Shown piece by piece: positions 20,845 to 61,951 of a DNA stretch of 64,000 nt. The translations under genes and the position numbers were made by a program. The notes beneath the pieces are model-generated. The model made no database searches and was not told the DNA's origin. It saw only the letters and a list, made by a program, of their open reading frames with translations. The stretch lies in contig JBMNNX010000005.1 of assembly GCA_050942745.1 (NCBI GenBank), positions 42 through 64,041 of the forward strand, written 5' to 3'. Source of the stretch: Myxococcales bacterium. Its GTDB lineage: Bacteria; Myxococcota; Myxococcia; Myxococcales; UBA5297. Numbering within the stretch: the first letter of the stretch is position 1; each line of letters begins with the position of its first letter.

Positions 20845-21046
20845 GAACCTCGGGGCCGAAGGCAACGCGCCCAGACGGCCAATCCTAGGCTCAGCCCCAC
20901 CACTCGTCAAACAAGGGAGCGCAGCGCGAATCCCAGGTTTTCAGTCGGTTGCGACGCGAGCCACCCGGCGGGGTTTCCACGGCGCGGCGGCAGCGCGGCG
21001 CGAAGGGCGCGTCCGCCGCGTTCGACACCTCAAGCCCCTTCTTGGC

Positions 21047-21688
21047 TCAGAAGGTGTACTTGATTTTCGGATAGAACGAAATCATGTGGACCATCGGCGA
21101 CAGCGTCGGCATGAAGCGGTAGTCGACGTCCAGGCCGATGCTGAAGTGGTCCATGTTGGTGGCGTACTCGGCGCCGACGGCAACCCCGAAGACAGGCCCG
21201 CCGTCGGTTTCGTCCATCGGCAGGGGGTCGAACGAGGCATACCCGACGTGCAAGCGGGGCTGCACCGTGAAACGGCTATTGATGTGGTAGCGGTAGCTCG
21301 CTTCGGCCGAAAAGAGGCTCACCGTAAAGTTGTCGGCCATCACGAGCTTGGGGTCCGAATTGCTCACGCAGCTTTGGCGGCTGTCCACAGTGGAGAAGCA
21401 GCTCGCGGCGGACGACCCAAGGCCAAAGTGCAGGCCCACGCTCAAGAACTCGAGCACGTCGTAGCCGACTCCGAGCTGCAGGTAGGGCTGGGCGTTCGAG
21501 GGCTTGGAAAGGCCTGTCATCACGCTCTTGCCTCCAAGCGTGAAGAAGCCTCCCATGTTCACGTCGGCGAAAAAGCCGGAGCGAATCTGCTGGGGAACCC
21601 CTGCGGCCGGAGTCGCCGCCCGTGCGGTGGGGACCAGGAGCGTGGCCGCAATCAGCGCGGCGCCGAAGATCGTTGCGTTGCGGGTCAT
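21047..21688 (-). CDS. Outer-membrane beta-barrel protein, GltH/NfsH-like by position
   Basis: I trimmed the track ORF to the ATG at 21688 (MTRNATIFGAALIAATLLVPTARA signal peptide). It has alternating beta-strand character and a C-terminal ...FYPKIKYTF with terminal Phe. It is the last gene of the A-H array. Confidence 0.65.
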   Translation of the reverse strand: MTRNATIFGAALIAATLLVPTARAATPAAGVPQQIRSGFFADVNMGGFFTLGGKSVMTGLSKPSNAQPYLQLGVGYDVLEFLSVGLHFGLGSSAASCFSTVDSRQSCVSNSDPKLVMADNFTVSLFSAEASYRYHINSRFTVQPRLHVGYASFDPLPMDETDGGPVFGVAVGAEYATNMDHFSIGLDVDYRFMPTLSPMVHMISFYPKIKYTF

Positions 21689-21766
21689 GTTCGCTCTGCC
21701 GTCGATTCGAGGGAAATAGCCTGCACGACGCGCACCCCGGCGCGTCGCAGGAGCCAAAGCCGCCTG

Positions 21767-23808: not shown

Positions 23809-24078
23809 CTAGAGATTGTCCACCGACTTTTGGAGCTCGGGGAGAAAGTCGTTGCGAAGCTTGATGAGGCTGCCGAACCGAGTCTTCTTGCGGTTGAGCA
23901 GGTAGCTGCCCTCCGGCTTGGTCAACTCGCCCTCGAGGGTCACGTCGTTGAAGTCGATGACCGTCTTCTTCTTGTAGACCGTCTTGTCGGCCTCCTGAAT
24001 GACGTTCTGGGCAAAAGCAGCGGGCGCTCCGAGAATCACCGTCGCAACCGTCATCGATGCCAGAAGGCGCTTCATCAC
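23809..24078 (-). CDS. Small secreted protein, GltF/NfsF-like by size and position (89 aa)
   Basis: Signal peptide MMKRLLASMTVATVILGAPAAFA. It lies between the GltE-like and GltG-like genes, where the small F component sits in M. xanthus. Confidence 0.6.
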   Translation of the reverse strand: MMKRLLASMTVATVILGAPAAFAQNVIQEADKTVYKKKTVIDFNDVTLEGELTKPEGSYLLNRKKTRFGSLIKLRNDFLPELQKSVDNL

Positions 24079-24187: not shown

Positions 24188-25714
24188 CTACGGCTTGCTC
24201 GGGTCCGCTGACGGCTGCTTCGCCTCCTCCGCTTTCCCCGCGGCCGGGCTCGCCCCCTGCTCCTCGGCAGAGCCCGAGGGGCCTTCGGCGCCCTTCTGCG
24301 CCGCGGGCTCGCCCTCGCTCGCCTTTTCCTTGGCGGCGTCCCCGCTCTGGGTCGCCGGTTCCGCGGCGCTGTCGCCCGAGTCGACTGGCGGCACCGACTC
24401 GGGGCTGTCGGCGGGCGCGGACTCTTGCTGCTCGGCCTGCTCGGCGATTTGCTCGAGCAACGATCCGTCCTTCGGCTGCTGCTCTGCGGCCTTGCGGCGC
24501 TTTTCCTCCTCCTCGCGCTGCCTGCTCTCCTCGGCTTCCCGCCGCAGGCGCTCGGCCTCGGCGCCGGCCAGGATCCGCTGCTCGACGACCTGTAGCTCCT
24601 GCGCCGCCTTATCCTTCGCCGGCCCCTCGGCCACCGCGAGGTAGCGCTCATAGAAGCTCTTCGCCTTGGACAGGTCCTTCAGCTCGCCGGCATAGGCGCG
24701 GGCGATCCCGTAGAGCGCGTCGGGCTGGTCCTTGACGAGCGCGAGGACCTTCTCGAACTCGGCGACCGCGTCGGCCGTGCGGTGCGTGCCATCCTTGAGC
24801 CGAACACCCTCGTAGGCCCAGGCCAGGTTCAGGTGGGCGTTCGCGTTGGTGGGATCGAGCTTGACCACCTTCTCGAAGCTCGCCGCCGCGTTCTCGTAGT
24901 CGCGATACGAGAGAGCCATCGCCCCGATGTTCGCGTGGCCGGGAGCAAAGTCCGGGTCGAGCGCAACCGCCTTCTTGAACTGCGCGAGGGCGAGGCGCCT
25001 TTCACCTTGCTTCATGTAGACGAGGCCAAGGTTGTTGTAGACGCCGGGATCCTTCTCGTCCAGCTTGACCGCATTGCCAGCGACAAAGGCCGCGAGGCTG
25101 AGCTTGTCCTGGTCGTAGGCGATGAGGGCGAGGTTCTTGTAGGCGTCCGGGTTGTCCTTGGTGCGCGAGAGCAGCTTTCGGACCGTCTCGGTCGCCTTGT
25201 CGAACTTCTTCGCAAACCGGTAGAAGACCGCGAGGTTGTTGAGGTAGTTGACGTCGAAGGGACGCGCCTCGAGCGCCTTCTCATAGAGCGCGATGCCCTC
25301 CTCGTACTTCTGCTGGTCGCGGTAGACCTTGCCGAGGTTGAGGATGGTCGCTTCGTGATCGGGCGCGATCTCGAGCACCGCGCGATAGTGGCGCGCCGCC
25401 GTCTCGAGGTCACCTTCGGCCTGCGCGATGAAGGCGAGGTCGTAGTTGGCGATAAGGAGCTTTGGGTCCTTCTCGACCGCCTTGGACAGTTCCAGCTTGG
25501 CTTGCGCGAGATCGTTCGTCTTGAGCGCCTCGACGCCCGCGTACTGGTGCTCCTCTGCGGTCGTCTCCCGCACCTGCACAGGGGCCTCGACCGTCGGGGC
25601 CGGCTTGATCTCCTGTTTTGGGCCCGAGCAGGCTGCCAGCCCGAGCGCGGCGAGCATCGAGAGAATGGGGAAGGAACCTGGGCGCATGGTCATGTTGTTC
25701 GGCTGAGAGGTCAT
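24188..25714 (-). CDS. TPR-repeat lipoprotein, GltE(AglT)/NfsE-like (508 aa)
   Basis: Lipobox LSMLAALGLAACSG. It has about nine TPR units (e.g. YNNLGLVYMKQGERRLALAQFKKAVALDPDFAPGHANIG) and an acidic/Lys-rich C-terminal tail. A GAGG ribosome-binding site lies 8 nt upstream of the ATG at 25714, which is 18 nt after the upstream stop. Confidence 0.75.
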   Translation of the reverse strand: MTSQPNNMTMRPGSFPILSMLAALGLAACSGPKQEIKPAPTVEAPVQVRETTAEEHQYAGVEALKTNDLAQAKLELSKAVEKDPKLLIANYDLAFIAQAEGDLETAARHYRAVLEIAPDHEATILNLGKVYRDQQKYEEGIALYEKALEARPFDVNYLNNLAVFYRFAKKFDKATETVRKLLSRTKDNPDAYKNLALIAYDQDKLSLAAFVAGNAVKLDEKDPGVYNNLGLVYMKQGERRLALAQFKKAVALDPDFAPGHANIGAMALSYRDYENAAASFEKVVKLDPTNANAHLNLAWAYEGVRLKDGTHRTADAVAEFEKVLALVKDQPDALYGIARAYAGELKDLSKAKSFYERYLAVAEGPAKDKAAQELQVVEQRILAGAEAERLRREAEESRQREEEEKRRKAAEQQPKDGSLLEQIAEQAEQQESAPADSPESVPPVDSGDSAAEPATQSGDAAKEKASEGEPAAQKGAEGPSGSAEEQGASPAAGKAEEAKQPSADPSKP

Positions 25715-25732: not shown

Positions 25733-28700
25733 CTAGAGGTTGCCCGGAGCCTGCGCGCCCGGGGTCGAAGGAGCGGTCTGTGCCGGGGTCGGCGGCGGAG
25801 GTGGCGGCTTCGGCGCGTCGAGGATGGCCGCGGCCGAAGCGAAGAACTGCGCCCCCTGGTACGGCACCTCGCGCGGCTCGAGGAAGGCCCCGCGCTTGTA
25901 GTTGTTGATGCGGTTCTGCGCCTCGAGGGTCCACTCGTTGTAGACCGACAGCTCAAAGCTCTTCTCGAGCGCCTTCTCGTAGAGGTTGATCGCGCTCTCT
26001 TCAAGCGGGAAGGCCCGGTTCTCGAGCTCGCTGCGGTACATGAACAGCTGGTCTTCGTCGAGGCCGTACGGGTCGGGGCTGTCGAGCAGGTTGCGCGCGA
26101 AGTCCTCGTACGCCTCGCCCATGCGCGTCAGCGAAGCGATCGCCCAGTCCACCGAGCCGATGGCGACCACCGCGGTGTAGCTCTTCTCGACCTTGTCCTT
26201 GAGCTCGAGCTTGGACTTGAGGTTCTTGCGCAGCGTGCGCACCTGGTCGAACTTGACCGACTTGTACTCCCGCCACAGCGGCGCGAGGGCCTCGAACCGC
26301 AGGTGCGCATAGGCGTTGCGCACCCGATCGCTCTCCTGGCTTTCCTTGGAGAGCTTGTCGAACGACTTCAGCAGCTCGTCCATGAGCTGCGCGGCGTCCC
26401 GGTCCTGCTTCAGCTCCCGGTGCGCGAGCCATTCGCGGTACTTGGCGTAGAAGACCTCGGCGGCCCCGACGCTCTTGCCGTACTGCTCGACATAGCCCTT
26501 GAAGATCTTCGCGGCGTCCTTGTGGTTCTTCTGTCGCTCGAAGATCAGGCCGATCTTGAAATAGACCTCCGGCACGTCCTTCTTTGCCGGGAACTCGGCC
26601 ACATAGCGGCTGTAAAGCGAGACCGCGTGCTCGTAGTCGCCAAGGCCCTCGGTCCACAGCGCAGCGTTGAAGAGCGCGTCGGCGACCTTGTCGGCGGTCT
26701 CGCCATCGAGCTTCCTCTCCTTCTTCTTGGCGGCCTTCTTGGCGTCCTTGGCCTCCTTCGCGGGCTCGCCCAGGAAGTGGCCCGCATAGCGCTCGAAGTA
26801 GCGCGCCGACATCGCGAAGTCGGAGGTCTGCTCGTAGAACGAGCCTAGGTAGAGCATGGTGCGCGCGACCAGGTCCTTGCCATCGATCGTCTTCGCGTGC
26901 GGGTACTCGGCGAGGAGCTTCTCGCCCACCTCGATGCTCCTGTCCAGCTCCTTGGCCTCGGAGTGGATCACCATCGCGTACAGCAGCGCCTGCGGCGCGT
27001 ACTTCGACTTGGGGAACTCGCCGACGAACTCGCGGAACTTCACCGCCGCCTCGGCCGGCCGCTGCTCCTTCTTGTAGACGACCTCGTCGATGTACATGTA
27101 CTGGCTGGCCTCGACGAGATCGGCGATGCGGTTGGCGAACTCCCTGTCGCTGCCGGCCAGCTTCTTGTTCGCGTGGAACTCGCGGGCGAGGCGATTGAGC
27201 TCGAGCCACTCCTGCTTCTGATTGAGGATATCGAGCGACAGGTCGGCGGCCTTGCGGCTCCACTGATCGGTGGGCCACTTGGCGATGATCTCCCCGAAGC
27301 GCTTGGCCGCTTCGAGATCGTGCTTGTGGTCGTAGAAGACGAAGGCGGCCTTGTAGCGCACCGTGATCTCGTCGTCGGCGCCCGGGTAGATGGTCACGTA
27401 GCGGTCGATGGCCTCGACGAGCTTCCTCTGGAAGGGCGGAATCTCCTCTTCCTTCGCATCCTTGTCGTGGCGCTCGAGCTTGACGGTGGTCTTCTTGACC
27501 TCGTCCTTGCGCTTCTTCTCGTCGATCCTCTGGCCTTCCTTCAGCTCGACCTTCTTCGCCTTGCCGCGCTCGATGTCGACGAGCTTCTCGTAGCAGAGCA
27601 CCTCGTTGTAGGCGGCCAGCTTCGAGTACTGTCCCTCCCTGTCCTTCTCGACCACCATCGCGTACTGCGGGGCCGCTTCCTCGTACTCATTGAGCGCCCA
27701 GAGAATTTCCGCGTAGTAGAAGCGCAGGTTGTAGGCGAACTCGCTGTCCGAGAAGTTGTCGAGGTACTCCTTGTAGATGTCGCGCGCGAGCCGGTAGGTC
27801 TCGACCACCTTGGTCTTCTGCGCCTCCTGGTGGTACTCGGTGACCATCGTGCGCATCGCGTTCTCGGTCATCTCGTACGCCGCCGAGATGGCGTTCTTGT
27901 TCTCGGAATTCGCCTTGGCCCAAGGGCTGTTGGGGTTGTAGAGATCAACCAACCGCTTCATTTCCTTCTTGACCATCTCGCGGTTGCGCAGGCCCTCGTA
28001 GCTCGTGATGATCGCGTTCTGATACTCGGGGCAGCGGGCGTCGTTGACGTCGTCGCTGATGAGGGTGCGGAAGACGCGGATCGCGCTCTCGTGCTTTCCC
28101 GCGTCCTGGAAGAGACCGGCCAGCTTGGCGGTCAAGCGCCGGGCGTTGGCCTTGCCGGTGTTCTTCTTGAAGTACTCCATCGCCTCGTCGACCGCCTCGA
28201 CCTGGGCGAAGCTGATGACGATGTCGTTGAGCGCTTCGTTCTTGAGGCCGGTTCCGCCCCTTTCCACCTTGGAGTGGGCGATGACCTCTTTGAACTTCTT
28301 GATCGCCTCCTCGTAGGCGCCGCCGTTGTAATCACACCACGCGAGCTTGTAGAGGGCGAAGTACTTGATCTTCGCGTTGTTGGTGGCGAGCGCCTTCTCG
28401 AACGCGGTGCGCGCCTTGGCGAGCTGGTTCGTGTTGAAGAAGTGCTCGCCCATCTGCACGTAGGCGTCAGGAACGAAGCGCGAATCCGGGTACTGCTTGA
28501 TGAGCTCGTTGTACTTGGCGATAGCCTCTTCCTTCTGGCCGATCTCGTACTTGTTGTAGGCGAAGGCGAAGAGCACCTCGTCCTTGCGCTCGTAGGAGGG
28601 GTACTCCTTGAGGATCTCCTCGTACTTGCGCAGCGCCTCCTGCCGATAGAGCTCACCCTCGCGCGTGAAGACCTCGAGCCGCGGCTCGGGCCCGGCCTCC

Positions 28701-29125
28701 TCGCCCCGGTTGGCCTTTTCGAGCCATGCCGCATAGGCCTCGTCCCACTTGCGGACGCCGGCATGGCGCACGAACTTGCTCTTCTCCCACCAGAGCTCGG
28801 CGAGCTGGAAGAGCAGGTCGGCCTTCGCCGCGCCCTGAACCTTGGGGATGATCCGCTTGAGCTGCTCGATCTGCTCGTCGCGCTTCTTGTCGGCCTTGGC
28901 GTCGAGCTCGACGTCCTCGTTCATCGCCGGCGCGAAGCGCGCGGGCCCCTTCGGCTCTTCCTTGGCCGGCTGCGACTTCTTGGAGCTGGAGCCCTTGGCT
29001 GCCGCGCCCTTGGCGCCGGCCGCGGGCTTCTCCTTCTTCTTGGCGGCGGCGGATACCGCCCCGGCGCTCGCGGTGACGATCGCGAAGCTCAGCGTGCAGA
29101 TCAGCAGACGAAGATTCAACCGCAT
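25733..29125 (-). CDS. Giant secreted TPR-repeat protein, GltD(AgmU)/NfsD-like (1130 aa)
   Basis: A signal peptide (MRLNLRLLICTLSFAIVTASAGAVSA) is followed by a Lys-rich tract and then TPR-like helical repeats along the entire length. Size and position match the D component. Confidence 0.75.
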   Translation of the reverse strand: MRLNLRLLICTLSFAIVTASAGAVSAAAKKKEKPAAGAKGAAAKGSSSKKSQPAKEEPKGPARFAPAMNEDVELDAKADKKRDEQIEQLKRIIPKVQGAAKADLLFQLAELWWEKSKFVRHAGVRKWDEAYAAWLEKANRGEEAGPEPRLEVFTREGELYRQEALRKYEEILKEYPSYERKDEVLFAFAYNKYEIGQKEEAIAKYNELIKQYPDSRFVPDAYVQMGEHFFNTNQLAKARTAFEKALATNNAKIKYFALYKLAWCDYNGGAYEEAIKKFKEVIAHSKVERGGTGLKNEALNDIVISFAQVEAVDEAMEYFKKNTGKANARRLTAKLAGLFQDAGKHESAIRVFRTLISDDVNDARCPEYQNAIITSYEGLRNREMVKKEMKRLVDLYNPNSPWAKANSENKNAISAAYEMTENAMRTMVTEYHQEAQKTKVVETYRLARDIYKEYLDNFSDSEFAYNLRFYYAEILWALNEYEEAAPQYAMVVEKDREGQYSKLAAYNEVLCYEKLVDIERGKAKKVELKEGQRIDEKKRKDEVKKTTVKLERHDKDAKEEEIPPFQRKLVEAIDRYVTIYPGADDEITVRYKAAFVFYDHKHDLEAAKRFGEIIAKWPTDQWSRKAADLSLDILNQKQEWLELNRLAREFHANKKLAGSDREFANRIADLVEASQYMYIDEVVYKKEQRPAEAAVKFREFVGEFPKSKYAPQALLYAMVIHSEAKELDRSIEVGEKLLAEYPHAKTIDGKDLVARTMLYLGSFYEQTSDFAMSARYFERYAGHFLGEPAKEAKDAKKAAKKKERKLDGETADKVADALFNAALWTEGLGDYEHAVSLYSRYVAEFPAKKDVPEVYFKIGLIFERQKNHKDAAKIFKGYVEQYGKSVGAAEVFYAKYREWLAHRELKQDRDAAQLMDELLKSFDKLSKESQESDRVRNAYAHLRFEALAPLWREYKSVKFDQVRTLRKNLKSKLELKDKVEKSYTAVVAIGSVDWAIASLTRMGEAYEDFARNLLDSPDPYGLDEDQLFMYRSELENRAFPLEESAINLYEKALEKSFELSVYNEWTLEAQNRINNYKRGAFLEPREVPYQGAQFFASAAAILDAPKPPPPPPTPAQTAPSTPGAQAPGNL

Positions 29126-29279: not shown

Positions 29280-30806
29280 CTACTCCTCTCTCTTCATGCA
29301 ACCCGACTTGAGCGTGTACTGATAGTAGCCAATCTCGTCGAGCCAAAACTCTCCCTGGAACTGCCAGTACTCCCAGTTCGCGCCAGGCATCACAGGCCGG
29401 TAAAGCGCCTGCTCGGCGAGGTGCGTTCTCTGGTTGAGGCGCCGCTCGAGCATGTCGGTCTCGCCCTTGGCCACCTCGAACTTGATGATCTCCTTCTGAC
29501 CATCGAAGCCGATGATGGTCTTGGCGGCGTCGTCGAGGCGCCGCTTGACGAAGCTGCCGGTCAGCTGGACGGCAAGATCCTTGCTCTGCTCGATCTCGCC
29601 GAGGAGGTTGCCTTGGATGCGCGAGCCCTTCCACGCGGGCTCGGCCCGGATGATCGCCTTCTCGCGGTCAAGCTGGTCGGCGTAGGCCTTGAACTGCACG
29701 AGCCGCTTGTTGGCGACGAGGTAGTTCTTCACCGAGCGCGGCAGCTCGGTCGACTTCTCGTCGAGCAGCGCGTGGTAGAAGTCGTTGTCCTTGTCGCCCT
29801 CGAGCAAAGCGGCCAGCCTCTCGCTGATCGGCAGGTAGATCTTCTCAAAGCCCTCCAGCGCCAGCTTGGCATCGTCGTACAGGCAGGACGAGTAGTACAC
29901 TGTCGCCTTCAGAATCCACGACTCGGGCTGGAAGCTGCCGGCAAACTGCGGGGCGTGCAGCGCCTGGAGCGAGCCGAGGGCGCCGCCGATGTCGTCGTTG
30001 TGGAAGCGCGCCCAGCCGTTCTCGAAGAGGGCCTCGTCCCAGTATTCGGAGAAGCGCGGGATCTGCTCGTAGTGCTTGACGGCGTCAGCGTACCGGCCCA
30101 TCCCGTAATACGTGCGCGCGGTGCCCAGGATGGCGAGGTGCCGAATCGACTCGAGGTCGAAGTAGGTGAGCTTGAGCGTGTTGCTCAGCTTGATGACGTC
30201 GCCGAACGACTCGAGCGCCTTTTCGAAATCGCCGTTGCGCGCGAAGAGGATCCCCTGCATGTAGCGGGCACGCGCGAAATAGGAGGAGTCCGGAGGAACC
30301 GAGGCAAAGAAGCTCATCGCCTCATCGCGCTTGTTCTTGCGGTAGCTCACCATGCCCACGATGTAGTTGATCTTGTTCAGAGTCTCGATGGGCAGCTTTG
30401 CGAACTCGTCGTTGTACTCCTTGTCGAGCACGGTGCCGGTGATGAAGTCCTCGCGAAGCGCCTCGCTCACCTGGACGATGCCCTCGATGGCCCTCAGGTA
30501 GTGAGGGTGGTTCGGCCCGGCCTTGACGACGAACGAATACTGGCGAAGCGCCGCGTCGTAGAGCCCCATCTTGAAGAACGACTGCGCGAGGTAATACTCG
30601 GAGCGCAGCCGAATCTCCTCGGACACCGCGTTGTCGGCGAGGTCGGCAAACAGCAACACGGCCGTCCCGTAATCGCCATCGTTGTAGGCCTGGACCGCCT
30701 TGTTGTTCTGCCCGGCGTCTTGGAGCGCTTCGGCCGCCACGGCCGAGCCCGACAGGCAGAGCAAGCCGAGAGCGGCGAGGATGGAACCCGTTCGAATCAC
30801 GCGCAT
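29280..30806 (-). CDS. Secreted TPR-repeat protein, GltC/NfsC-like (508 aa)
   Basis: Signal peptide MRVIRTGSILAALGLLCLSGSAVAA. TPR units include YYLAQSFFKMGLYDAALRQYSFVVK and ARTYYGMGRYADAVKHYEQI. It sits between the B-like barrel gene and the D-like gene. Confidence 0.7.
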   Translation of the reverse strand: MRVIRTGSILAALGLLCLSGSAVAAEALQDAGQNNKAVQAYNDGDYGTAVLLFADLADNAVSEEIRLRSEYYLAQSFFKMGLYDAALRQYSFVVKAGPNHPHYLRAIEGIVQVSEALREDFITGTVLDKEYNDEFAKLPIETLNKINYIVGMVSYRKNKRDEAMSFFASVPPDSSYFARARYMQGILFARNGDFEKALESFGDVIKLSNTLKLTYFDLESIRHLAILGTARTYYGMGRYADAVKHYEQIPRFSEYWDEALFENGWARFHNDDIGGALGSLQALHAPQFAGSFQPESWILKATVYYSSCLYDDAKLALEGFEKIYLPISERLAALLEGDKDNDFYHALLDEKSTELPRSVKNYLVANKRLVQFKAYADQLDREKAIIRAEPAWKGSRIQGNLLGEIEQSKDLAVQLTGSFVKRRLDDAAKTIIGFDGQKEIIKFEVAKGETDMLERRLNQRTHLAEQALYRPVMPGANWEYWQFQGEFWLDEIGYYQYTLKSGCMKREE

Positions 30807-30845: not shown

Positions 30846-31976
30846 CTAGAACAGGAAGCTGAAGCCGGTGTAGACCGAAACGTTGTTGAGGACGTCCGAG
30901 CTCGTCTCCTTGAGCAGCAACTTGGCGAGCTGGCGATCGTCCACGTGGTCGAACTTTCCGGGCAAGCAGCTCGCGTTGAGCGGGGCACCGCCGTTGCCGA
31001 GCTCGTTGAGGTCATCGAAGCTGCAGCCGTTGATCTTGTCGACGCGCGCCGTGTAGATGAGGTCGCGCACCTCGAGGCGCACCGCCGCCCGCTCGCCGAG
31101 GAAGACGCGAAACCCCGCGCCCACCGAGCCGAGGAACTTGAAACCCGTGTCCCCGAAGCTTGCGTCGCGGCACTCCGGGTTGGCCGTGCCCGGGCCGCAA
31201 TTGGAGGTCTGCTCGGGCCGCAGCTGGATGCGGGTGTTGCCCACCCCTGCCCCCGCGTTGAGCACGAAGGTGAAGTGGCCGAGCACGCCCTCGTAGAACG
31301 CGAACTTGCCGTACACCGGCGTCACCTCGATGCCCCCGACCGCGCCATACTGCAGCAGCAGCGCCGTCGCGGCCTGTGCCTGCTGGTGCCCCTTGTCGAT
31401 GAGCTCCTGGTTGAAGGCCGACTCATGGTTGACGTAGTGGAAGATGGGCGTGACCTGCACCGCCAGGTTCTCGAAGAGGTGATAGGCGTAGGTCGCCGCG
31501 GCGCCGACGTGGATGGTGAACTTGGAGTTGAGCTGCGCGATCGCCGGGTAGAGCACCAGCTCGTGGCGCCCCTCGTTCGTATACGGCTTGCGTTCGACGA
31601 TGTGCACGCCGACGTTGGCGTTGCCGAGAGGCGCGCCTTCGATGACCCGCGCCTGCTCTTCTGAGATGCGAATCAGCGGGGCGTCGCCGGCGCGAGCGAG
31701 CGGTGCGGGCTGAGGGCTTGCCACCTCCTCGTCACTGGCTTCGCCCTCGGCCGCCTCGGCCTCCTCGGTCGCCTCGGCCTCGACTCCGGCCGCGGCCGGC
31801 TCGGCAGCCGCCTCCTCGTTGGTCGCGGCCGGCCCGGCAGCCACCGCGTCGCTGGTCGCCGCCGCCTCGCCGCCCGACTCCGTCGCCGCGGCTGCCTCCG
31901 TGGCCTCTTCGGCCGCCGCGCTCGTAGCGAGTGCCAGCGCCGAAATCACCAGAGCTGCTCTCAGGATGGTCTTCAT
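30846..31976 (-). CDS. Outer-membrane beta-barrel protein with acidic Ala/Glu-rich N-terminal extension, GltB/NfsB-like (376 aa)
   Basis: A signal peptide (MKTILRAALVISALALATSAAA) is followed by about 90 aa of A/E-rich low complexity and then beta-barrel character. It ends ...VSVYTGFSFLF. Confidence 0.7.
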   Translation of the reverse strand: MKTILRAALVISALALATSAAAEEATEAAAATESGGEAAATSDAVAAGPAATNEEAAAEPAAAGVEAEATEEAEAAEGEASDEEVASPQPAPLARAGDAPLIRISEEQARVIEGAPLGNANVGVHIVERKPYTNEGRHELVLYPAIAQLNSKFTIHVGAAATYAYHLFENLAVQVTPIFHYVNHESAFNQELIDKGHQQAQAATALLLQYGAVGGIEVTPVYGKFAFYEGVLGHFTFVLNAGAGVGNTRIQLRPEQTSNCGPGTANPECRDASFGDTGFKFLGSVGAGFRVFLGERAAVRLEVRDLIYTARVDKINGCSFDDLNELGNGGAPLNASCLPGKFDHVDDRQLAKLLLKETSSDVLNNVSVYTGFSFLF

Positions 31977-32034: not shown

Positions 32035-32880
32035 CTAGAAGCTGAAGGTTGCCCCGATGTTGAAAAGAACGAGGTGGGTCAGCCCCGGGTTGCTCGCCGG
32101 TTGGCCCTGCGTGGCTGCCTGGTCGCCGCCGTCCTTGGCCGCGAAGTCCTTCTCGGCGGCCGCGCGCGCGATGTCGACCCGATAGCTGTCGGGGAACGCC
32201 ATGTCCCTGACCTCGATGCGCAGCCCCGCCCACTCGTTGACAATAAAGCGGAAGCCGAGGCCGCCCATGAAGATCGGCTTGACCTGGCTCGAGTGGAGGG
32301 GAGTGAGCGAATAGTCTCCAGAGCCATCCGGGCGGCAGGTCGCCAGCTTTCGGTGCGAGTCGTCGACGTCGCCGATGCAGTAGACCAGGCTGTCGCGCTC
32401 CATGCCCCCGAGCCCGGCGCCCGCCAGCAGGTACGCGTTGAAATGCACGGGCAACTCGGCCGCCACGTTCATCTTGCCGTAGATGGGCGCCCAACGCGCC
32501 GCAAGGCCCACGTTCCAGGTCATCTGCCAGAGGTCTTCGAAGTCGTCGACCGTCTTCTGCTGACTGGCGGGGTTGCTCTGGACGACCTCGTTGGAGGCGG
32601 CCTCGGCGACGTTGGTCTGGCTGGAGAGGGCGTAGCCGCCGACGAGCTCCACCGCCCACTGCTCGGTCACGTTGTACGCCAGGCTCGCGGTGAGGTTGGT
32701 GTGGCGGGTCAGGTAGTTGACCACGCTCAGTCCCGCGCTTGCGCTCGCTTCGAACCTGCCCTCGTTGACGTAGAGGCGGTTGCGGACCACGACCTTTTCA
32801 GGCTCGGCGCACAGGGCCGATGCGGGGGCGAGCATCGTCCCCACGGCAAGCAGCATCAACGCGCGAAGGGTGCTTTTCAT
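32035..32880 (-). CDS. Outer-membrane beta-barrel protein, GltA/NfsA-like (281 aa)
   Basis: Signal peptide MKSTLRALMLLAVGTMLAPASALCA, with alternating strands. It ends ...LFNIGATFSF (terminal Phe). It is a paralogous pair with the next barrel protein. Confidence 0.7.
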   Translation of the reverse strand: MKSTLRALMLLAVGTMLAPASALCAEPEKVVVRNRLYVNEGRFEASASAGLSVVNYLTRHTNLTASLAYNVTEQWAVELVGGYALSSQTNVAEAASNEVVQSNPASQQKTVDDFEDLWQMTWNVGLAARWAPIYGKMNVAAELPVHFNAYLLAGAGLGGMERDSLVYCIGDVDDSHRKLATCRPDGSGDYSLTPLHSSQVKPIFMGGLGFRFIVNEWAGLRIEVRDMAFPDSYRVDIARAAAEKDFAAKDGGDQAATQGQPASNPGLTHLVLFNIGATFSF

Positions 32881-32971: not shown

Positions 32972-34507
32972 CTATTGGCACGCCTGGTTGAAGTTGGTGT
33001 TCACGTCGTAGCAGACTTCGATCGACGACTGCGCCGGAGGCTGCCCGTCCACGTTGAAGCGGAGGATGTTGCGGAACGAGCTCGCGTCGCACTTACAGTA
33101 CTCGAGGGCGGGCCGGCAGTCGCTCGTGTTTCCCCCTTCGCACAGCGGCAGCGCGCTCGGCGTGCAGTTCTGCAGCGACCTGGCCCCCACATCGAGCCGA
33201 CGAGCGCAGGTGGCGCCGCGACAGGTCTGCCCCTCGTCGCAGTCCTCATCGCTCGAGCACCTGCGCGCGTCCTTCTCGGTGACATAGACCTCGAGGGTGT
33301 CGGTCATCGGGCCACGCGACAGGCGAAACTCCTGGCGCAACCCCGAGACGGCGAAGCCGAGCGACTGAAGCGCATTGGCGAACGAGCCGCGAATCGAGAT
33401 GGCCGTGCCGCCGGTGCGTGAGGCGACGTCGATGTAGCGCTCGCCAAAGTACGCGACACCCGTGCCGTCGTTAGGGCAGCCGATGTGCATGAAGCTCGGG
33501 TCCCCGCCCTGCGACGGGACCGGCTCTTTCTGCGTGCAGACGACCGCGCCGGCAGCGACGAGGTCGCTGTGGCCGAAGTTCTTGTAGCTCTCGAGAAAGC
33601 GCACGAAGTAGTTCGTCGACCCGTAGGTGAGCGCCGCGGCGTCGCAGCGGCACCCGGGATCGGCCAGGCACGGCTCGCCGGAGGCCGGGCGCCCGTCGCC
33701 GTTGAGAGGAACGAACGGAGCGCACGACGAGTCGTCCTCGTCGGAGACGAAGACGACGAACAGCGCCGCATCCGGGCGGATGAACGGCTGCTTCTTCGAG
33801 AGGTCCGAGGAGCGGGGATCCTCGGCACGAAGGTTGTCGCTTCGGGTCAAGGCGAGGTAGGCCGCCTGCAACCCGCGCTCGACCGCCGAGCCACCGGTCC
33901 CCACCTTGGACATCTGCGCGAAGGCCGCGGCCACATTGTTTCCGGTGCCCGAGTTGCGGGGCACGTTGCAGTTGCCTTCGGCGTCGCAGGCAATGTAGCG
34001 CCCGGCGGCGCCGCCCGCCTCGGTCAGGTCGAACCCGTGCAGCGCGCCGTTGGTTCCGTTCTTGTCGGGAGGGATCACCCCGTCGCGCTCCGCGTTGTAG
34101 ATGAGCTGGGCGTTCTCGGTGTCGGTCGAGGTCACGCCGATGTGGAAGTCGACCGGCGGCTCCAGGGAGACGAGCGCGTCGATGAACTTGGGGAACTCGG
34201 CCGCGAGGTTCGCCTGGGAGCTCTTCATCGAGCCGGAGTTGTCGACTACCCAGAGGATGTCGACCTTGCGCACCGCGTTCTGCTGAAAGAAGTCGCACTG
34301 GCGCGGTACGTTGAACTGGAACTGCGGAGCTTGCGCTTCCTCCTGCTGCACGGTGGGCTTGCCGGTGTCCACCGCCGGGTTGCCCTGCACGACCGTAAAC
34401 TCCTCGATGATGCGCGTGGTCTTGACAGGCTCCTCACAGGAGCAGCCAGAGAACACCGCGCACGCGGCGACGGCGGCGAAGCTTGCTTTGTAGATCGACG
34501 AGCGCAT
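32972..34507 (-). CDS. Cysteine-rich von Willebrand factor A (VWA/MIDAS) lipoprotein, CglB-like architecture (~511 aa)
   Basis: I trimmed the track ORF to the ATG at 34507 (MRSSIYKASFAAVAACAVFSGCSC, a lipobox). MIDAS DxSxS is present in VDILWVVDNSGSMKSSQANL, with later GVTSTD and FVVFVSDEDD blocks. I counted 22 Cys in the mature part, clustered at the C-terminus (RRCSSDEDCDEGQTCRGATC...). Confidence 0.75.
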   Translation of the reverse strand: MRSSIYKASFAAVAACAVFSGCSCEEPVKTTRIIEEFTVVQGNPAVDTGKPTVQQEEAQAPQFQFNVPRQCDFFQQNAVRKVDILWVVDNSGSMKSSQANLAAEFPKFIDALVSLEPPVDFHIGVTSTDTENAQLIYNAERDGVIPPDKNGTNGALHGFDLTEAGGAAGRYIACDAEGNCNVPRNSGTGNNVAAAFAQMSKVGTGGSAVERGLQAAYLALTRSDNLRAEDPRSSDLSKKQPFIRPDAALFVVFVSDEDDSSCAPFVPLNGDGRPASGEPCLADPGCRCDAAALTYGSTNYFVRFLESYKNFGHSDLVAAGAVVCTQKEPVPSQGGDPSFMHIGCPNDGTGVAYFGERYIDVASRTGGTAISIRGSFANALQSLGFAVSGLRQEFRLSRGPMTDTLEVYVTEKDARRCSSDEDCDEGQTCRGATCARRLDVGARSLQNCTPSALPLCEGGNTSDCRPALEYCKCDASSFRNILRFNVDGQPPAQSSIEVCYDVNTNFNQACQ

Positions 34508-34672
34508 GACCAGCTGAGCGCCTTCGTTTATCACAGCGGCTCTCGACGCATCAAGCCGCGGGGCGTGCGGGAAACGGCTCATTTTCACTGTCTTTCCCGG
34601 CCGCTGCCTCACCGAACGAGCATCCGGCCGAACCGGCGCGCCCGCGGGAGCGCGCCGTCAGGGGAAGCGAGG

Positions 34673-36484
34673 CTATTGGAGCTCTGGCGGAACGCAGGCT
34701 TCGATGAGCTCGCCGGTGACGGTCATCACCTCCGAGGAGCAGGCCCAGTCGTCCGGGCAGGCGCCACCCTCGCCGCAGGGCTGGGTGCAGATGGCGCCGG
34801 AGGCCTTCTTGATGCAGAGCCGATCGGCGCAGGCCGCCGGGCCAAAGCTGCAGTCGCTGCCGGGAGCCCCGCCGCCGTCCGGGAAGCAGATCCGCACCGG
34901 GCTACCATCCGACTCGGCGAACGCGTCGCGGCAGACGAAATCCGGCGGACAGGTGCCGTCGGCCGCGCACGGGGTCGAGCAGAGCCGCGCGGTGCCGATG
35001 TCCAGGCAGGTCCCGCTCTGGCAGGGCGGGCGCCCGGGGCTGCAATCGTCGCCGAAGAGGCCGCCGTTCGGCGCGCAGACGCCGAGGCCCGACTTCGGCC
35101 CGTTGTCGGCGGAGTTTCGCTCCGCGGGCGAGCAGTCGTAAAAGTCGCCCGAGCGAGCGCAGCAGCGCCACTTCCGCGGATCGCCGCAGTCGCCGTCGAG
35201 CGCGCAGGAGGCGCTGCAGAGCGCGGTCGACCCGTAGGAGAGACACAGCCCGGTCACACAGTCCGAAGCGCCGCCCGCCGAGCAGCTGTCACCGAGCCGC
35301 CCCAGGCCCGACAGGCAGGTGCCGCGCTGGGGGACGCAAAACTGCCCCTGTCCGACCGGGGCGCAGACGAAGCCCGGCCCGAACCGCTCCTGGCACTGCT
35401 TGTCGCCGTCGGCCGTCGGGCACGGCTCGGCGCAGAAGGTCTCGCCCTTGCTCGGGCAGTCCTCGCAGGCATTCATCAAGCATTCGTTCGACTCGCGGCC
35501 TGCGCGCCGGCAGTCGTCGTTGTCGCGACAGGGCGAGCACTGCCGCCCGTCGTCGGCCGACCGACACAGGTGGTTCTCGACATCGCACTGACGTCCGAGC
35601 CCGCACTGGAGGATCTGAGCGCGCTCATCGCTGCTGTCGCAGAAGTCCCTGCACGAGTTCGAGTTGGGCACGCACTGGAACGGCCCGTCGCCGACCCCGG
35701 ACATGTCCAGGCAGCCAAAGCCCTCGGGGCAGTCGCCGGTGCGCGCGGGGTCGCAGACGCGCCCGCAGAAGGTCTCGCCGGAGACGACGTTGCGAACGCA
35801 CTGATCGAAAGGTCCGCCGCACTCCTGATCGCCCTTGCACGGCGCGCACAGGCTGCCGCCGCCCTCGCAGGTGCCTCCCGGGTTGTCGGGGACGCACTGC
35901 TTCGTGAGCTCGACAGCCCCGTCAGCCTTGAACAGCGGCACCTCTTTGCAGGCATAGCCCTCCGGACAGCTCCCGCCCTCGCCGCAGGAGGTCGTGCAGT
36001 AGCGCTCGCCCGTGGCCGGCACGCTGAAGCAGGTGCCGTCCTCCGGGCATTGCTTGTCGGTCGTGCACGGCGAGCACAGCTCGCGAACGACCTTGATGTA
36101 GCAGACACCGCTGTCGAGGTCGCACCGGTGTCCCGAGGGGCAATCCCGGTTTTCGTCGCACGTCGAAGCCCGTTGGCACACCGGGCCGAAGCGGCCCGCG
36201 TCCTCGCACCGGAAGCCCTCCGGACACGCGCCTTCGGCCCCACAGCTCCTCGCGCAGAACCCGCTTGCGTCGTCGAGCGGAATGCACAAAGAGTCGGCGC
36301 AGTCGGTCGGCCGCGACGGGTCGCACGGATCGCCGAGCGCGAGCTTGCGCGCCGGCGGATCGCTGCACCCGGTCGCGACAAGCCCGGCCAGGCTCAGCAG
36401 TGAGACCGCTGCAAGGTGCAACCCGGCACGCCCGAAGGCGTACCGGGGAGCGCACCGACAAAAGGACTCGCGCGCACAGTCCAT
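34673..36484 (-). CDS. Cysteine-rich repeat lipoprotein (603 aa, 78 Cys by my count)
   Basis: Lipobox LSLAGLVATGCSD. A module recurs throughout, of the form C..(F/Y)C...C...G.CP.G(F/Y).C (e.g. GFCARSCGAEGACPEGFRC, RYCTTSCGEGGSCPEGYAC, TFCGRVCDPARTGDCPEGFGC, AICTQPCGEGGACPDDWAC). The start ATG at 36484 lies 8 nt after the rplC stop. Confidence 0.75.
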   Translation of the reverse strand: MDCARESFCRCAPRYAFGRAGLHLAAVSLLSLAGLVATGCSDPPARKLALGDPCDPSRPTDCADSLCIPLDDASGFCARSCGAEGACPEGFRCEDAGRFGPVCQRASTCDENRDCPSGHRCDLDSGVCYIKVVRELCSPCTTDKQCPEDGTCFSVPATGERYCTTSCGEGGSCPEGYACKEVPLFKADGAVELTKQCVPDNPGGTCEGGGSLCAPCKGDQECGGPFDQCVRNVVSGETFCGRVCDPARTGDCPEGFGCLDMSGVGDGPFQCVPNSNSCRDFCDSSDERAQILQCGLGRQCDVENHLCRSADDGRQCSPCRDNDDCRRAGRESNECLMNACEDCPSKGETFCAEPCPTADGDKQCQERFGPGFVCAPVGQGQFCVPQRGTCLSGLGRLGDSCSAGGASDCVTGLCLSYGSTALCSASCALDGDCGDPRKWRCCARSGDFYDCSPAERNSADNGPKSGLGVCAPNGGLFGDDCSPGRPPCQSGTCLDIGTARLCSTPCAADGTCPPDFVCRDAFAESDGSPVRICFPDGGGAPGSDCSFGPAACADRLCIKKASGAICTQPCGEGGACPDDWACSSEVMTVTGELIEACVPPELQ

Positions 36485-36492
36485 GTTCCCTC

Positions 36493-37203
36493 TTACTTTT
36501 TCCTGGCGGGACCCTTCTTCTTCTCCTCACCCTCCCCGGTGGCCGCGCCGATGACCCGATCCGGCTTGCCCTTGATCGAGGGATTGATCTCGATGAGCCC
36601 GTTCCGGTGTCCGGGCACCGCGCCCCACAGCAGGATGAGGTTGTTCTCGAGGTCGATGTCGACGACCTGCAGGTTCTGGATTGTCCGCCGGACGACGCCC
36701 ATGTGACCGGGCATCGTGCGGCCCTTCCAGACCCTACCAGGAGTCTTGCGGGCGCCGATGGCGCCGATGTGGCGGTGGTGCTCGTGGGTCGAGGCCGAGT
36801 CGCGCGCGGCACCCTTCATCCCGAAGCGCTTGACGACGCCGGCGAACCCGCGGCCCTTGGTCGTGCCGGTCACGTCGACGAACTGACCCTTGCGGAAGAT
36901 ATCGACCTTGATCTCGTCACCGACGTTGAGCCCCTCCATCTCCTCGGGGGCAAGCCGGAACTCGCGCACAACCTCCATCGGCTGGACGCCAGCCTTCTTG
37001 AAGACGCCGGCATCGGGCTTGTTGAGGCGCTTCTCCTGCTTGGGCCGGAAGCCGACCTGGATGGCCGAGTAGCCGTTGCGCTCGGGGGTGCGCTTGGCGA
37101 TGACGACGCACGGCCCGGCCTGCACGATAGTCACCGGCACGGCGTCGCCGCTCTCGTTGAACACCTGCGTCATCCCGACCTTCGTGCCCAGAATGCCCTT
37201 CAT
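36493..37203 (-). CDS. rplC: 50S ribosomal protein L3 (236 aa), outside any ribosomal operon
   Basis: MKGILGTKVGMTQVFNESGDAVPVTIVQAGPCVV..., FVDVTGTTKGRGFAGVVKRFGM, HRHIGAIGARKTPGRVWKGRTMPGHMG and LLWGAVPG are canonical L3 blocks. It has a Lys-rich C-terminal extension. An AAGGAGAG ribosome-binding site precedes the ATG. No rpsJ or rplD is nearby. Confidence 0.9.
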   Translation of the reverse strand: MKGILGTKVGMTQVFNESGDAVPVTIVQAGPCVVIAKRTPERNGYSAIQVGFRPKQEKRLNKPDAGVFKKAGVQPMEVVREFRLAPEEMEGLNVGDEIKVDIFRKGQFVDVTGTTKGRGFAGVVKRFGMKGAARDSASTHEHHRHIGAIGARKTPGRVWKGRTMPGHMGVVRRTIQNLQVVDIDLENNLILLWGAVPGHRNGLIEINPSIKGKPDRVIGAATGEGEEKKKGPARKK

Positions 37204-59832: not shown

Positions 59833-59860
59833 TTCTGCTCGCTCGACGCGGAGGGTCCGT

Positions 59861-61720: not shown

Positions 61721-61888
61721 GTAGCTCCTCCTGAAACTGCTCCTCGAGGCAGGGTCAATCGGCGGCCGGGCTACCCGGGGCAGGGCAGGTCGGGGGCACC
61801 GCAAGGAAGCACGCCTTCGAGATCATCAATCGGTCAAGTTGCCGCCGTTTTTCGGGGCATCTTACAAGAAGCGGCCGCCCAGCGAAAG

Positions 61889-61906
61889 CCCTTGGAAGTC
61901 CAAGGG
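61889..61906 (-). terminator. Candidate stem-loop between the secretin and ATPase genes
   Basis: Perfect inverted repeat CCCTTGGA/TCCAAGGG (18 nt), 46 nt downstream of the secretin stop. No clear U-tract follows, so it may be an attenuator or processing site rather than a true terminator. Confidence 0.3.
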
Positions 61907-61951
61907 TTGCGTGGGCGGCCGCGGTGGCGCGGGCCTGGGAAGGCCGCGGCG

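What the first reader, a model, noticed from the sequence alone, without database searches (positions are those of the whole stretch)
32972..36484. Cys-rich VWA/MIDAS lipoprotein plus 78-cysteine repeat lipoprotein placed directly upstream of the Glt/Nfs-like operon: a candidate built-in adhesin/cargo module
Two lipoprotein genes sit immediately 5' of the gltA/nfsA-like barrel gene, on the same strand, with gaps of 91 and 165 nt.

- The first is a VWA domain with an intact MIDAS DxSxS (DNSGS) and 22 Cys in the mature protein. It is reminiscent of the cysteine-rich VWA adhesin CglB, which the M. xanthus Glt machine exposes at focal adhesions (from my recollection). In M. xanthus that gene is encoded far from glt/nfs.
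- The second is a 603 aa protein with 78 Cys (13 percent). It is built from about 8-10 copies of a C..(F/Y)C..SC..G.CP.G(F/Y).C module, i.e. an EGF/disulfide-knot-like stalk.

Physical linkage of matrix-binding-type lipoproteins to an A-H machine is not something I know to be described. It suggests that this copy of the machine presents or moves a dedicated surface adhesin pair.
Basis: partly seen in the sequence, partly recalled or inferred. Interest (0 to 1): 0.75.

Follow-up and report, generated by a model that had tools for sequence, protein, structure and literature searches.

The report
Adhesin-like lipoprotein pair in Nfs operon
Two uncharacterised lipoprotein genes, one an integrin-like metal-site (VWA) protein and one with about 36 likely disulfide bonds, are built into the sporulation-type (Nfs) copy of the myxobacterial gliding machine in about 70 uncultured species, but are missing from that locus in every cultured relative examined, which suggests the machine originally carried its own binding tip.

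Summary
On the minus strand, a 603-aa lipoprotein with 78 Cys (36484..34673) and a 511-aa VWA/MIDAS lipoprotein (34507..32972) sit 165 and 91 nt apart, directly upstream of an A–H Glt/Nfs-type array.

- **Synteny.** The order uL3–CYS–VWA–A–B–C–D–E–G is kept in essentially every orthologous locus recovered: 73/73 with room upstream and 68/68 with room downstream. VWA identity there falls as low as 30%.
- **Nfs locus.** The locus is the positional orthologue of the Myxococcus nfs operon. Cultured Myxococcus, Stigmatella and relatives keep HupE–x–256aa–uL3–nfsA… but lack the pair, with no remnants.
- **Loss more likely than gain.** A B+C+D+E tree nests the pair-less clade inside pair-bearing lineages, but the tree has no outgroup.
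- **VWA protein.** It models as an integrin β-I-like fold. It belongs to a very large lipoprotein-VWA superfamily that also holds the Bd0875 and CglD VWA domains. Homology to CglB could not be tested.
- **Cys-rich protein.** It is a new family: 73 of 75 Cys are invariant and the model is confident, but it has no Pfam or PDB match and is not demonstrably EGF.

Best reading: the pair is an operon-encoded outer-membrane ligand-binding module of an Nfs-type machine. This is inferred and has not been shown experimentally.

The parts
34673..36484 (-). CYS: 603-aa Cys-rich lipoprotein precursor. It has 78 Cys and the lipobox ...ATG-C. It contains 5 clear, 2 degenerate and 2 half copies of a 55-aa eight-Cys module.
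   Evidence: The model has pLDDT 88 and pTM 0.76. There is no Pfam, NCBIfam or PDB match.
32972..34507 (-). VWA: 511-aa lipoprotein precursor. After the signal peptide comes a conserved but disordered tether of about 45 residues, then a VWA domain, then a C-terminal β-rich domain. The proposed MIDAS residues are D89-x-S91-x-S93, S207 and D256.
   Evidence: NCBIfam NF052240 (Bd0875-type MIDAS adhesin) matches at E 1e-11, far below its cut-off.
36493..37203 (-). uL3 (rplC-like) gene. Its stop codon lies 8 nt before the CYS ATG, with GAGGGA between them. It is conserved upstream of the array in all loci.
32035..32880 (-). A: NfsA/GltA-like outer-membrane β-barrel, 91 nt downstream of VWA.
   Evidence: TIGR04565 128 bits. 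It is 38-41% identical to the uL3-linked NfsA of Myxococcus and Stigmatella.
30846..31976 (-). B: NfsB/GltB-like outer-membrane β-barrel.
   Evidence: TIGR04565 71 bits.
29280..30806 (-). C: NfsC/GltC-like TPR protein.
   Evidence: GltC model 241 bits against a cut-off of 450. The Myxococcus nfs-locus protein scores 209.
25733..29125 (-). D: NfsD/GltD-like 1130-aa TPR protein.
24188..25714 (-). E: NfsE/GltE-like TPR lipoprotein.
   Evidence: GltE model 133 bits against a cut-off of 225. Myxococcus scores 119 and Stigmatella 124.
23809..24078 (-). F: 89-aa ORF in the NfsF/GltF position.
   Evidence: ORFs of 86-95 aa occupy the same position in L002 and L083-L087.
21767..23626 (-). G: NfsG/GltG-like protein with an FHA domain and a TonB-C/AgmX tail.
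   Evidence: GltG model 316 bits against a cut-off of 650.
21047..21757 (-). H: CglE/GltH/NfsH-like barrel protein.
   Evidence: NF033755 150 bits against a cut-off of 70.

Best explanation
The two genes encode outer-membrane-targeted lipoproteins that are dedicated subunits of an Nfs-type (Glt-paralogous) envelope machine. They probably form its distal ligand-binding module.

- **VWA protein.** It supplies a metal-ion-dependent (MIDAS) binding head.
- **Tether.** The roughly 45-residue segment after its lipid anchor is conserved but intrinsically unfolded. It probably docks by strand addition onto the A/B barrel pair or onto the partner lipoprotein, as has been modelled for CglB with GltA/B/K.
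- **Cys-rich protein.** It has about 36 conserved disulfide-forming pairs and is the most conserved protein of the array. It forms a rigid scaffold next to the membrane that holds or presents the VWA head.
- **Motion.** Movement of the A–H complex, driven by an Agl-type motor encoded elsewhere, would then drag whatever the MIDAS site holds relative to the cell. That could be the substratum or matrix (traction) or a surface polymer (wrapping).
- **History.** The pair is probably ancestral at this locus. It was probably lost in the clade containing the cultured Myxococcus and Stigmatella strains, whose Nfs handles the Exo spore-coat polymer without it.

Shown: gene structure, lipoprotein signals, VWA fold and MIDAS residues, conservation, synteny, nfs-locus orthology. 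Inferred: operon membership, physical association with A/B, orientation at the surface, the ligand, and loss rather than gain.
For: **Synteny**
- uL3–CYS–VWA–A–B–C–D–E–G is found in every orthologous locus with enough flank: 73/76 upstream and 67/71 downstream. The exceptions are three paralogue loci and one scoring artefact.
- Database gene calls give VWA-to-A gaps of 5 and 13 nt in two loci and 127 nt in a third. The lower-bound median across 71 loci is 9 nt.
- No terminator-like site was found in either gap of the window.

**Lipoproteins**
- A lipobox is present in all 53 CYS homologues and in the 47 VWA homologues aligned. None has Lys at +2.

**VWA protein**
- The model matches integrin β chains at E 2e-8.
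- S91 and S93 are invariant. D89 and D256 are replaced together (to Q and S) in one sub-clade of 7 sequences.
- The profile finds 12,252 representative proteins. Sampled members also match the Bd0875 and CglD VWA models.
- Tether residues 25-68 are conserved (E35 and G42 invariant) but have pLDDT below 55.

**CYS protein**
- 73 of 75 Cys are invariant.
- Its median identity to the window is 51%, against 38-47% for A–G.

**nfs-locus orthology**
- The upstream genes are the same (HupE_UreJ_2, a 256-aa protein, uL3).
- The B–C gap of 23 nt and the F–G gap of 55 nt in Myxococcus sp. SDU36 equal the published M. xanthus nfs spacings (PMC2875238).
- Scores against the Glt models are sub-threshold at the same level as the window's.

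**Loss rather than gain**
- In the tree, the split joining the pair-less clade to the large MAG clade has 200/200 bootstrap support. The pair-less clade is monophyletic in 193/200 replicates. Deeper pair-bearing lineages lie outside.
- No remnants of the pair were found in the pair-less loci.

**Precedent**
- CglB, a Cys-rich VWA lipoprotein, is held by GltABHK (PMC9946355, PMC11761067).
Against: - There are no expression, localisation or interaction data for these proteins. No complex prediction could be run.
- M. xanthus Nfs works without such proteins, so they are not generally required by an A–H machine.
- The pair is coupled most tightly to uL3 (8 nt). In M. xanthus the uL3-position gene (MXAN_3370) is transcribed differently from nfsA (PMC2875238).
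- In the window, the 165-nt gap holds a 10-bp GC hairpin just after the CYS stop. It has no U-tract, but it could attenuate transcription.
- One sub-clade has lost both MIDAS aspartates yet keeps the gene. Metal-dependent binding is therefore not always essential.
- The tree is rooted only at its midpoint, with no Glt outgroup.
- Lipoproteins face the periplasm by default, so surface exposure is an assumption.
Confidence: 0.5

Rival explanations
1. The two lipoproteins face the periplasm and act as structural or assembly factors for the outer-membrane barrels, not as a surface adhesin. Their role would resemble that of GltK, which is needed for proper insertion of GltA/B and has no counterpart in Nfs-type arrays.
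For: - No GltK-like gene is present in the array.
- Lipoproteins are periplasm-facing by default.
- The Cys-rich protein has only a short tether, so it would sit against the membrane.
- It is more conserved than any machine part, as expected for a structural core rather than an environment-facing adhesin.
- MIDAS is dispensable in one sub-clade.
Against: - A VWA domain with a conserved MIDAS site and an integrin β-I-like fold is typically a ligand-binding module.
- Its nearest named relatives, Bd0875 and the CglD VWA domain, are surface adhesins (PMC11003981; bioRxiv 10.1101/2023.10.19.562135).
- The long conserved tether suits reaching through or around a barrel complex.
Confidence: 0.25
2. 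The pair is functionally unrelated to the A–H machine. It would belong to a uL3-headed transcription unit with some other envelope role, for example a generic VWA lipoprotein plus Cys-rich lipoprotein adhesion pair. It would lie next to the array only through inherited gene order.
For: - The uL3 stop is 8 nt from the CYS start.
- In M. xanthus, nfsA has its own promoter and is regulated differently from the upstream gene (PMC2875238).
- Similar VWA lipoprotein plus Cys-rich lipoprotein neighbours occur outside any Glt/Nfs context in L078, L079 and L081.
- The cultured clade lost the pair without losing the array.
Against: - Order and orientation are invariant across lineages in which VWA identity falls to 30%, with VWA-to-A gaps of a few nucleotides in many genomes. 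Neutral synteny rarely survives that much divergence.
- No orthologue of the pair was found away from the array. The three loci without neighbours hold distant paralogues.
Confidence: 0.12
3. The pair was gained by insertion between uL3 and nfsA in an ancestor of the uncultured lineages and is not ancestral. It would have converted a sporulation-type machine into a new adhesion device in those lineages only.
For: - The unrooted tree allows a single gain if the root lies on the stem of the pair-less clade.
- No remnants of the pair exist in the pair-less loci.
Against: - Midpoint rooting puts the root among deep pair-bearing lineages (L076, L082, L065).
- Pair-less Nfs proteins are closer to the large pair-bearing clade (distance 0.60-0.80) than that clade is to the window clade (0.77-0.95).
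Confidence: 0.13

Closest known systems
CglB of Myxococcus xanthus (gliding adhesin held by GltABHK)
   Same: - Both are outer-membrane lipoproteins with a VWA domain, a DxSxS…(S/T)…D MIDAS site and a small β-rich domain.
- Both have many Cys: CglB has 17 of 416 residues, and this family has 16 conserved Cys.
- Both are associated with a Glt/Nfs-type barrel pair. For CglB, the N- and C-termini are modelled as strand insertions into GltA/B/K (PMC9946355, PMC11761067).
   Different: - cglB is encoded away from the glt and nfs genes, whereas this gene lies inside the operon.
- CglB matches Pfam VWA_2 (PMC4488436), whereas this protein does not (E 0.13).
- This protein is about 75 residues longer and has a longer tether: 67 residues from the lipid Cys to the first MIDAS Asp, against 36 in CglB.
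CglD of M. xanthus (β-integrin-like lipoprotein with VWA domain and EGF-like Cys-rich stalk)
   Same: - The two proteins here together combine a VWA/MIDAS head with a disulfide-rich repeat region, as CglD does in a single chain.
- The VWA model's best PDB matches are integrin β chains, as reported for CglD.
- Superfamily members found with the VWA profile also match the CglD VWA segment.
   Different: - Here the two parts are separate genes.
- There are no Ca-binding DxDxDG repeats.
- The window's proteins do not match the CglD model NF033765.
[quoted passage not shown]
Bd0875, MIDAS-family adhesin of Bdellovibrio bacteriovorus (NCBIfam NF052240)
   Same: - It is the only named family the VWA protein matches (E 1e-11, residues 113-296).
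- It is also a lipoprotein with a VWA domain, predicted disulfide bonds and a small domain (PMC11003981).
   Different: - The score is 44 bits against a cut-off of 700, so this is not an equivalog.
- Bd0875 is 378 aa with 4 disulfides.
- It acts in prey invasion and is not linked to a Glt-type cluster.
nfsA–H operon of M. xanthus (Agl-driven spore-coat assembly machine)
   Same: - The gene order A–H, in a single cluster, is the same.
- The upstream neighbours are the same (HupE_UreJ_2, a 256-aa protein, uL3).
- Both lie at the same distance from the Glt models.
   Different: The M. xanthus-type locus has only 190-470 nt between uL3 and nfsA and no lipoprotein pair. Its known cargo is the Exo polysaccharide.
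Cys-rich repeat stalks of myxobacterial surface proteins (TraA, TIGR04201 Myxo_Cys_RPT) and animal disulfide modules (EGF, Lustrin, WAP, Dickkopf)
   Same: They share short tandem modules with regularly spaced Cys and DC-P-x-G-x-C-type motifs.
   Different: - No model reaches its threshold. The best is Lustrin_cystein at 19-22 bits against a cut-off of 27, and there is no EGF hit.
- Foldseek finds no PDB match (best E 0.76).
- The protein is not a fast-evolving repeat stalk: its length and 73 Cys are fixed across the family.

Membership tests
VWA domain with MIDAS | Rossmann-like α/β VWA fold | tested here: met
   The AlphaFold model has pLDDT 81. Foldseek gives 94 PDB hits at E<=1e-3, and the top hits are integrin β chains at E 2e-8 and probability 1.0. 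Pfam VWA_2 reaches only E 0.13.
VWA domain with MIDAS | DxSxS plus a distal Thr/Ser and Asp | tested here: met
   The window has D89-N-S91-G-S93, with both Ser invariant. S207 is present in 46/47 sequences and D256 in 40/47. D89 and D256 are replaced together in 7 sequences. The geometry of the site was not inspected.
Bd0875-type MIDAS adhesin (NCBIfam NF052240, equivalog) | Score at or above the curated cut-off of 700 bits | tested here: not met
   The score is 44 bits, E 1e-11, covering only the N-terminal half of the VWA domain. This is superfamily-level similarity.
CglD (NCBIfam NF033765, equivalog) | Score at or above 400 bits, with an architecture of about 1100 aa including Ca-binding repeats | tested here: not met
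   Neither window protein matches at E<=10. Only more distant superfamily members touch the VWA part of the model, at 30-57 bits.
CglB | Sequence or fold homology to M. xanthus CglB | not testable with these tools
   No CglB sequence could be obtained: no CglB model surfaced in NCBIfam, the original paper is not held, and no supplements are held. Only published features could be compared.
CglB | Retention and exposure by the GltA/B/H/K outer-membrane platform | not tested
   This needs complex prediction or experiment.
Bacterial lipoprotein | Type-II signal peptide with a lipobox Cys | tested here: met
   Both proteins have a charged N-region, a hydrophobic core and small residues before an invariant Cys. 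This holds in all 53 CYS homologues and in the 47 VWA homologues aligned.
   There is no Pfam or NCBIfam hit for the whole protein. The module consensus gives only sub-threshold Lustrin, DUF7107, WAP and Dickkopf hits. PDB sequence and fold searches were empty.
nfs operon (Nfs-type machine) | A–H in one co-oriented cluster at the uL3-linked locus | tested here: met
   Order and flanks match those of Myxococcus sp. SDU36, Stigmatella sp. ncwal1 and strains GXIMD 01537 and JPH2. In SDU36 the B–C gap of 23 nt and the F–G gap of 55 nt equal the published M. xanthus nfs values (PMC2875238).
nfs operon (Nfs-type machine) | Role in spore-coat assembly | not testable with these tools
   The organisms are uncultured, and no exo genes or expression data are in hand.
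Glt gliding transducer (NCBIfam GltC/GltE/GltG equivalogs) | Scores at or above the curated cut-offs | tested here: not met
   C scores 241 against 450, E scores 133 against 225, and G scores 316 against 650. The Nfs-locus proteins of cultured strains fall short by a similar margin.

The most novel reading that the evidence does not exclude
The common ancestor of the Nfs-type machines, and possibly of Glt too, carried its own two-part, integrin-like surface adhesin in the operon: a VWA head and a disulfide scaffold. In the many uncultured Myxococcia that keep it, the 'sporulation' paralogue would then be an adhesion or traction device. The model organisms would represent a derived state in which the adhesin genes were lost from the locus, or dispersed to become cglB/cglD-type genes.
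Probability: 0.3. Interest if true: 0.8.

Novelty: new variant of a known kind. Interest (0 to 1): 0.62.

Why it matters
How Glt/Nfs machines couple to what they move is only partly understood.

- For Glt, the coupling protein is CglB, and its gene is unlinked to the machine genes.
- For Nfs, the link to its polymer cargo is unknown (PMC3858216).

An operon-encoded, strictly co-inherited VWA/MIDAS lipoprotein and a new 36-disulfide lipoprotein give concrete candidates for the distal end of an Nfs-type machine. They suggest that the well-studied M. xanthus locus is a reduced form. They also define two uncharacterised protein families that can be expressed and tested together with the A/B barrels. 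The roughly 70 orthologous loci provide paired alignments for complex prediction.

Tried and rejected
- **Longer VWA ORF.** The GTG 34612 ORF (546 aa) was rejected, because homologues start at the position of ATG 34507. TTG 36421 was rejected as the CYS start, because the longer N-terminus is conserved in a close homologue.
- **Sequence models.** Pfam and NCBIfam on both proteins gave almost nothing. PDB sequence searches with both profiles and with the module consensus were empty.
- **Fold search.** The fold search for the Cys-rich model found no significant match.
- **CglB sequence.** Attempts to obtain it failed: the paper is not held and no supplements are held. Names for superfamily members were all 'hypothetical'.
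- **agl motor genes.** No aglRQS-type motor genes were found in the parts of the window that were scanned.
- **Remnants of the pair.** None were found in the pair-less loci.
- **Neighbouring Cys-rich proteins.** Homology between the Cys-rich protein and the Cys-rich neighbours of paralogous VWA genes is only weak, at module level and biased by composition.
- **Intergenic RNA structure.** Folding of the two gaps was no better than shuffled sequence (z 0.87 and -0.22).
- **Promoter and terminator scans.** They were uninformative in this GC-rich DNA.

Full report
**1. What is there**

All relevant genes lie on the minus strand.

- **Cys-rich gene (CYS).** It runs from ATG 36484 to the stop at 34673 and encodes 603 aa with 78 Cys.
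- **VWA gene.** The VWA ORF is best started at ATG 34507, where homologues start, and ends at 32972. It encodes 511 aa, with 22 Cys from the lipid Cys onward and DNSGS at D89-S93.
- **Downstream array.**
  - Two OMP_myx_plus barrels: A (32880..32035) and B (31976..30846).
  - A GltC-like TPR protein, a 1130-aa TPR protein and a GltE-like TPR lipoprotein.
  - An 89-aa ORF, a GltG-like FHA/TonB-C protein and a CglE/GltH-like protein.
- **Upstream gene.** A full-length uL3 gene (37203..36493) ends 8 nt before the CYS start codon, with GAGGGA in between.

**2. The two proteins**

Both have type-II signal peptides. An invariant Cys preceded by small residues is seen in all 53 CYS homologues and in the 47 VWA homologues aligned, and none has Lys at +2.

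*VWA protein*
- It has no Pfam hit. Its only named match is the Bdellovibrio Bd0875 MIDAS-adhesin model, at 44 bits against a cut-off of 700.
- Its AlphaFold model (pLDDT 81, pTM 0.73) matches integrin β chains (Foldseek E 2e-8, probability 1.0).
- S91 and S93 are invariant and S207 nearly so.
- D89 and D256 are present in 40 of 47 sequences. In the same seven sequences they are replaced together by Q and S. This is internal evidence that they belong to one site.
- Residues 25-68, between the lipid anchor and the fold, are conserved (E35 and G42 invariant) but predicted disordered. That pattern is typical of a segment that folds on a partner.
- A profile of the family finds 12,252 representative proteins at E<=1e-3. 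Sampled members also touch the Bd0875 and CglD VWA models. The protein therefore belongs to a very large lipoprotein-VWA superfamily, within which this orthologous group is distinct.

*Cys-rich protein*
- It has no match in Pfam, NCBIfam or the PDB, by sequence or by fold.
- Its model is nevertheless confident (pLDDT 88, pTM 0.76).
- 73 of its 75 Cys are invariant in 53 sequences.
- It is built from five clear 55-aa eight-Cys modules, two degenerate ones and two half modules.
- The module consensus gives only sub-threshold hits to Lustrin, DUF7107, WAP and Dickkopf models, and none to EGF.

**3. Neighbourhood**

A scan of one genome per species found 290 relatives of the VWA protein. The best 80 are all from metagenome-assembled Myxococcota genomes.

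- Among those 80 loci, CYS lies directly upstream in 73 of the 76 with room for it. A lies directly downstream in 67 of the 71 with room. The exceptions are three distant paralogue loci and one scoring artefact.
- uL3–CYS–VWA–A–B–C–D–E–G is kept while VWA identity falls to 30%.
- Gene calls from the database give VWA-to-A gaps of 13, 5 and 127 nt in three loci. My lower-bound median over 71 loci is 9 nt.
- The CYS protein is, with uL3, the most conserved protein of the array. Its median identity to the window is 51%, against 38-47% for A–G.

**4. Which machine**

Homologues of protein A from cultured strains lie at the same locus. Their flanks are HupE_UreJ_2, a small ORF, a 256-aa protein and uL3, followed by A-B-C-D-E-F-G. 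The strains are Myxococcus sp. SDU36, Stigmatella sp. ncwal1 and Myxococcaceae strains GXIMD 01537 and JPH2. In all of them only 190-470 nt, and no CYS or VWA gene, lie between uL3 and A.

- In SDU36 the B–C gap (23 nt) and the F–G gap (55 nt) equal the values published for M. xanthus nfs (PMC2875238). This is therefore the nfs operon.
- Its C and E proteins score 209-213 and 119-124 bits against the GltC and GltE models. The window's proteins score 241 and 133. All are well below the cut-offs.
- The window array is therefore Nfs-type by position and by distance from Glt.
- No remnant of the pair is detectable in the pair-less loci.

**5. Loss or gain**

I built a neighbour-joining tree of concatenated B, C, D and E (53 taxa, 2522 columns).
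- The pair-less clade groups with the large pair-bearing MAG clade (200/200 bootstrap replicates).
- The pair-less clade is monophyletic in 193/200 replicates.
- The window clade, L066 and the deep lineages L076, L082 and L065 lie outside, and all of them carry the pair.

With midpoint rooting, one loss explains the pattern. A single gain would need the root on the stem of the pair-less clade. No Glt outgroup was available, so this remains an inference.

**6. Mechanism proposed**

By analogy with CglB–GltABHK (PMC9946355, PMC11761067), I propose the following.
- The VWA lipoprotein is the ligand-binding head of this Nfs-type machine.
- It is docked through its conserved tether.
- The Cys-rich lipoprotein is a rigid scaffold next to the membrane.

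The machine would move whatever the MIDAS site holds. No motor genes of the aglRQS type were found in the parts of the window that were scanned.

Points against:
- No experimental data exist.
- M. xanthus Nfs works without the pair.
- The pair is most tightly coupled to uL3, and the gene upstream of nfsA in M. xanthus (MXAN_3370) is regulated differently from nfsA (PMC2875238).
- A GC hairpin without a U-tract follows the CYS stop.
- One sub-clade has lost the MIDAS aspartates.

Rival readings:
- The pair is a periplasm-facing assembly factor, taking a GltK-like role.
- The pair is an unrelated module linked to uL3.
- The pair was gained recently rather than lost.

**7. Comparison with what is known**

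The literature searched reports cglB only as co-occurring with agl/glt genes. It states that cglD is never clustered with gliding genes (PMC9946355; bioRxiv 10.1101/2023.10.19.562135). CglB and CglD are drawn as not encoded near other machine genes (PMC4488436). I found no description of a VWA lipoprotein or a Cys-rich lipoprotein inside a glt or nfs cluster.

Membership in the CglD and Bd0875 equivalog families was tested and not met. Membership in the CglB family could not be tested. The EGF reading is not supported.

**8. Verdict**

This is a real, strongly conserved and apparently undescribed variant of the Nfs/Glt-type system, containing two uncharacterised protein families. The functional reading is plausible but wholly inferential.

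Noticed in passing
window 36493-37203 (-); also L001-L089 upstream of the array: A full-length uL3 (rplC-like) gene sits directly upstream of the A–H array in every locus, including the nfs loci of cultured Myxococcus and Stigmatella. No S10 or L4 gene lies beside it. In the window it ends 8 nt before the CYS start. Identity between clades is only about 50%. Whether it is a second copy or a relocated rplC is unresolved.
   Followed up: partly
VWA family alignment A1, columns of window residues D89, E210, D256: Seven homologues (P0013, P0014, P0016-P0019, P0036) carry D89→Q, D256→S and E210→Q together. They have lost the MIDAS site but keep the gene. At least one of them (P0018) still lies next to the CYS gene.
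   Followed up: partly
L078 9896-13946; L079 8423-11694; L081 7578-10854: Distant paralogous VWA lipoproteins (30-32% identity) lie outside any Glt/Nfs context. In L079 and L081 each is directly followed by a different Cys-rich repeat lipoprotein; in L078 a choice-of-anchor-D protein lies between them. This hints at a recurrent VWA plus Cys-rich pairing in Myxococcota.
   Followed up: partly
window 33205-33258 (VWA residues 417-434): The C-terminal domain of the VWA protein holds a small CxxDxDCxxGxxCxxxxC knot. It resembles a half module of the neighbouring Cys-rich protein (weak hits to TIGR04201 and DUF7107).
   Followed up: no
window 34634-34657 (-), inside the 165-nt CYS–VWA gap: A 10-bp GC-only hairpin (GGCGCGCUCC…GGGCGCGCC) starts 16 nt after the CYS stop and has no U-tract. 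It could be an attenuator or an mRNA-stability element. The gap as a whole folds no better than shuffled sequence.
   Followed up: partly
window 18586-20910, 42136-43851 and 39182-42088 (-): Two Ser/Thr kinases with PEGA domains flank the region. A 968-aa TonB-dependent receptor has a roughly 330-aa N-terminal extension. The kinase–receptor pair upstream is conserved in the window's own clade (L001, L003-L008).
   Followed up: no
window 57763-63400 (-): A Tad/T2SS-like set: a secretin with BON domain, a T2SSE ATPase fused to an FHA domain, and a protein with two FHA domains. Other FHA proteins are at 3286-4308 and in G, so the neighbourhood is rich in FHA signalling.
   Followed up: no
L086 7590-9778: In one pair-less locus, two unrelated genes occupy the space between uL3 and nfsA: a 258-aa ORF and an FAD-dependent pyridine nucleotide-disulfide oxidoreductase on the opposite strand. 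This junction therefore tolerates insertions.
   Followed up: no
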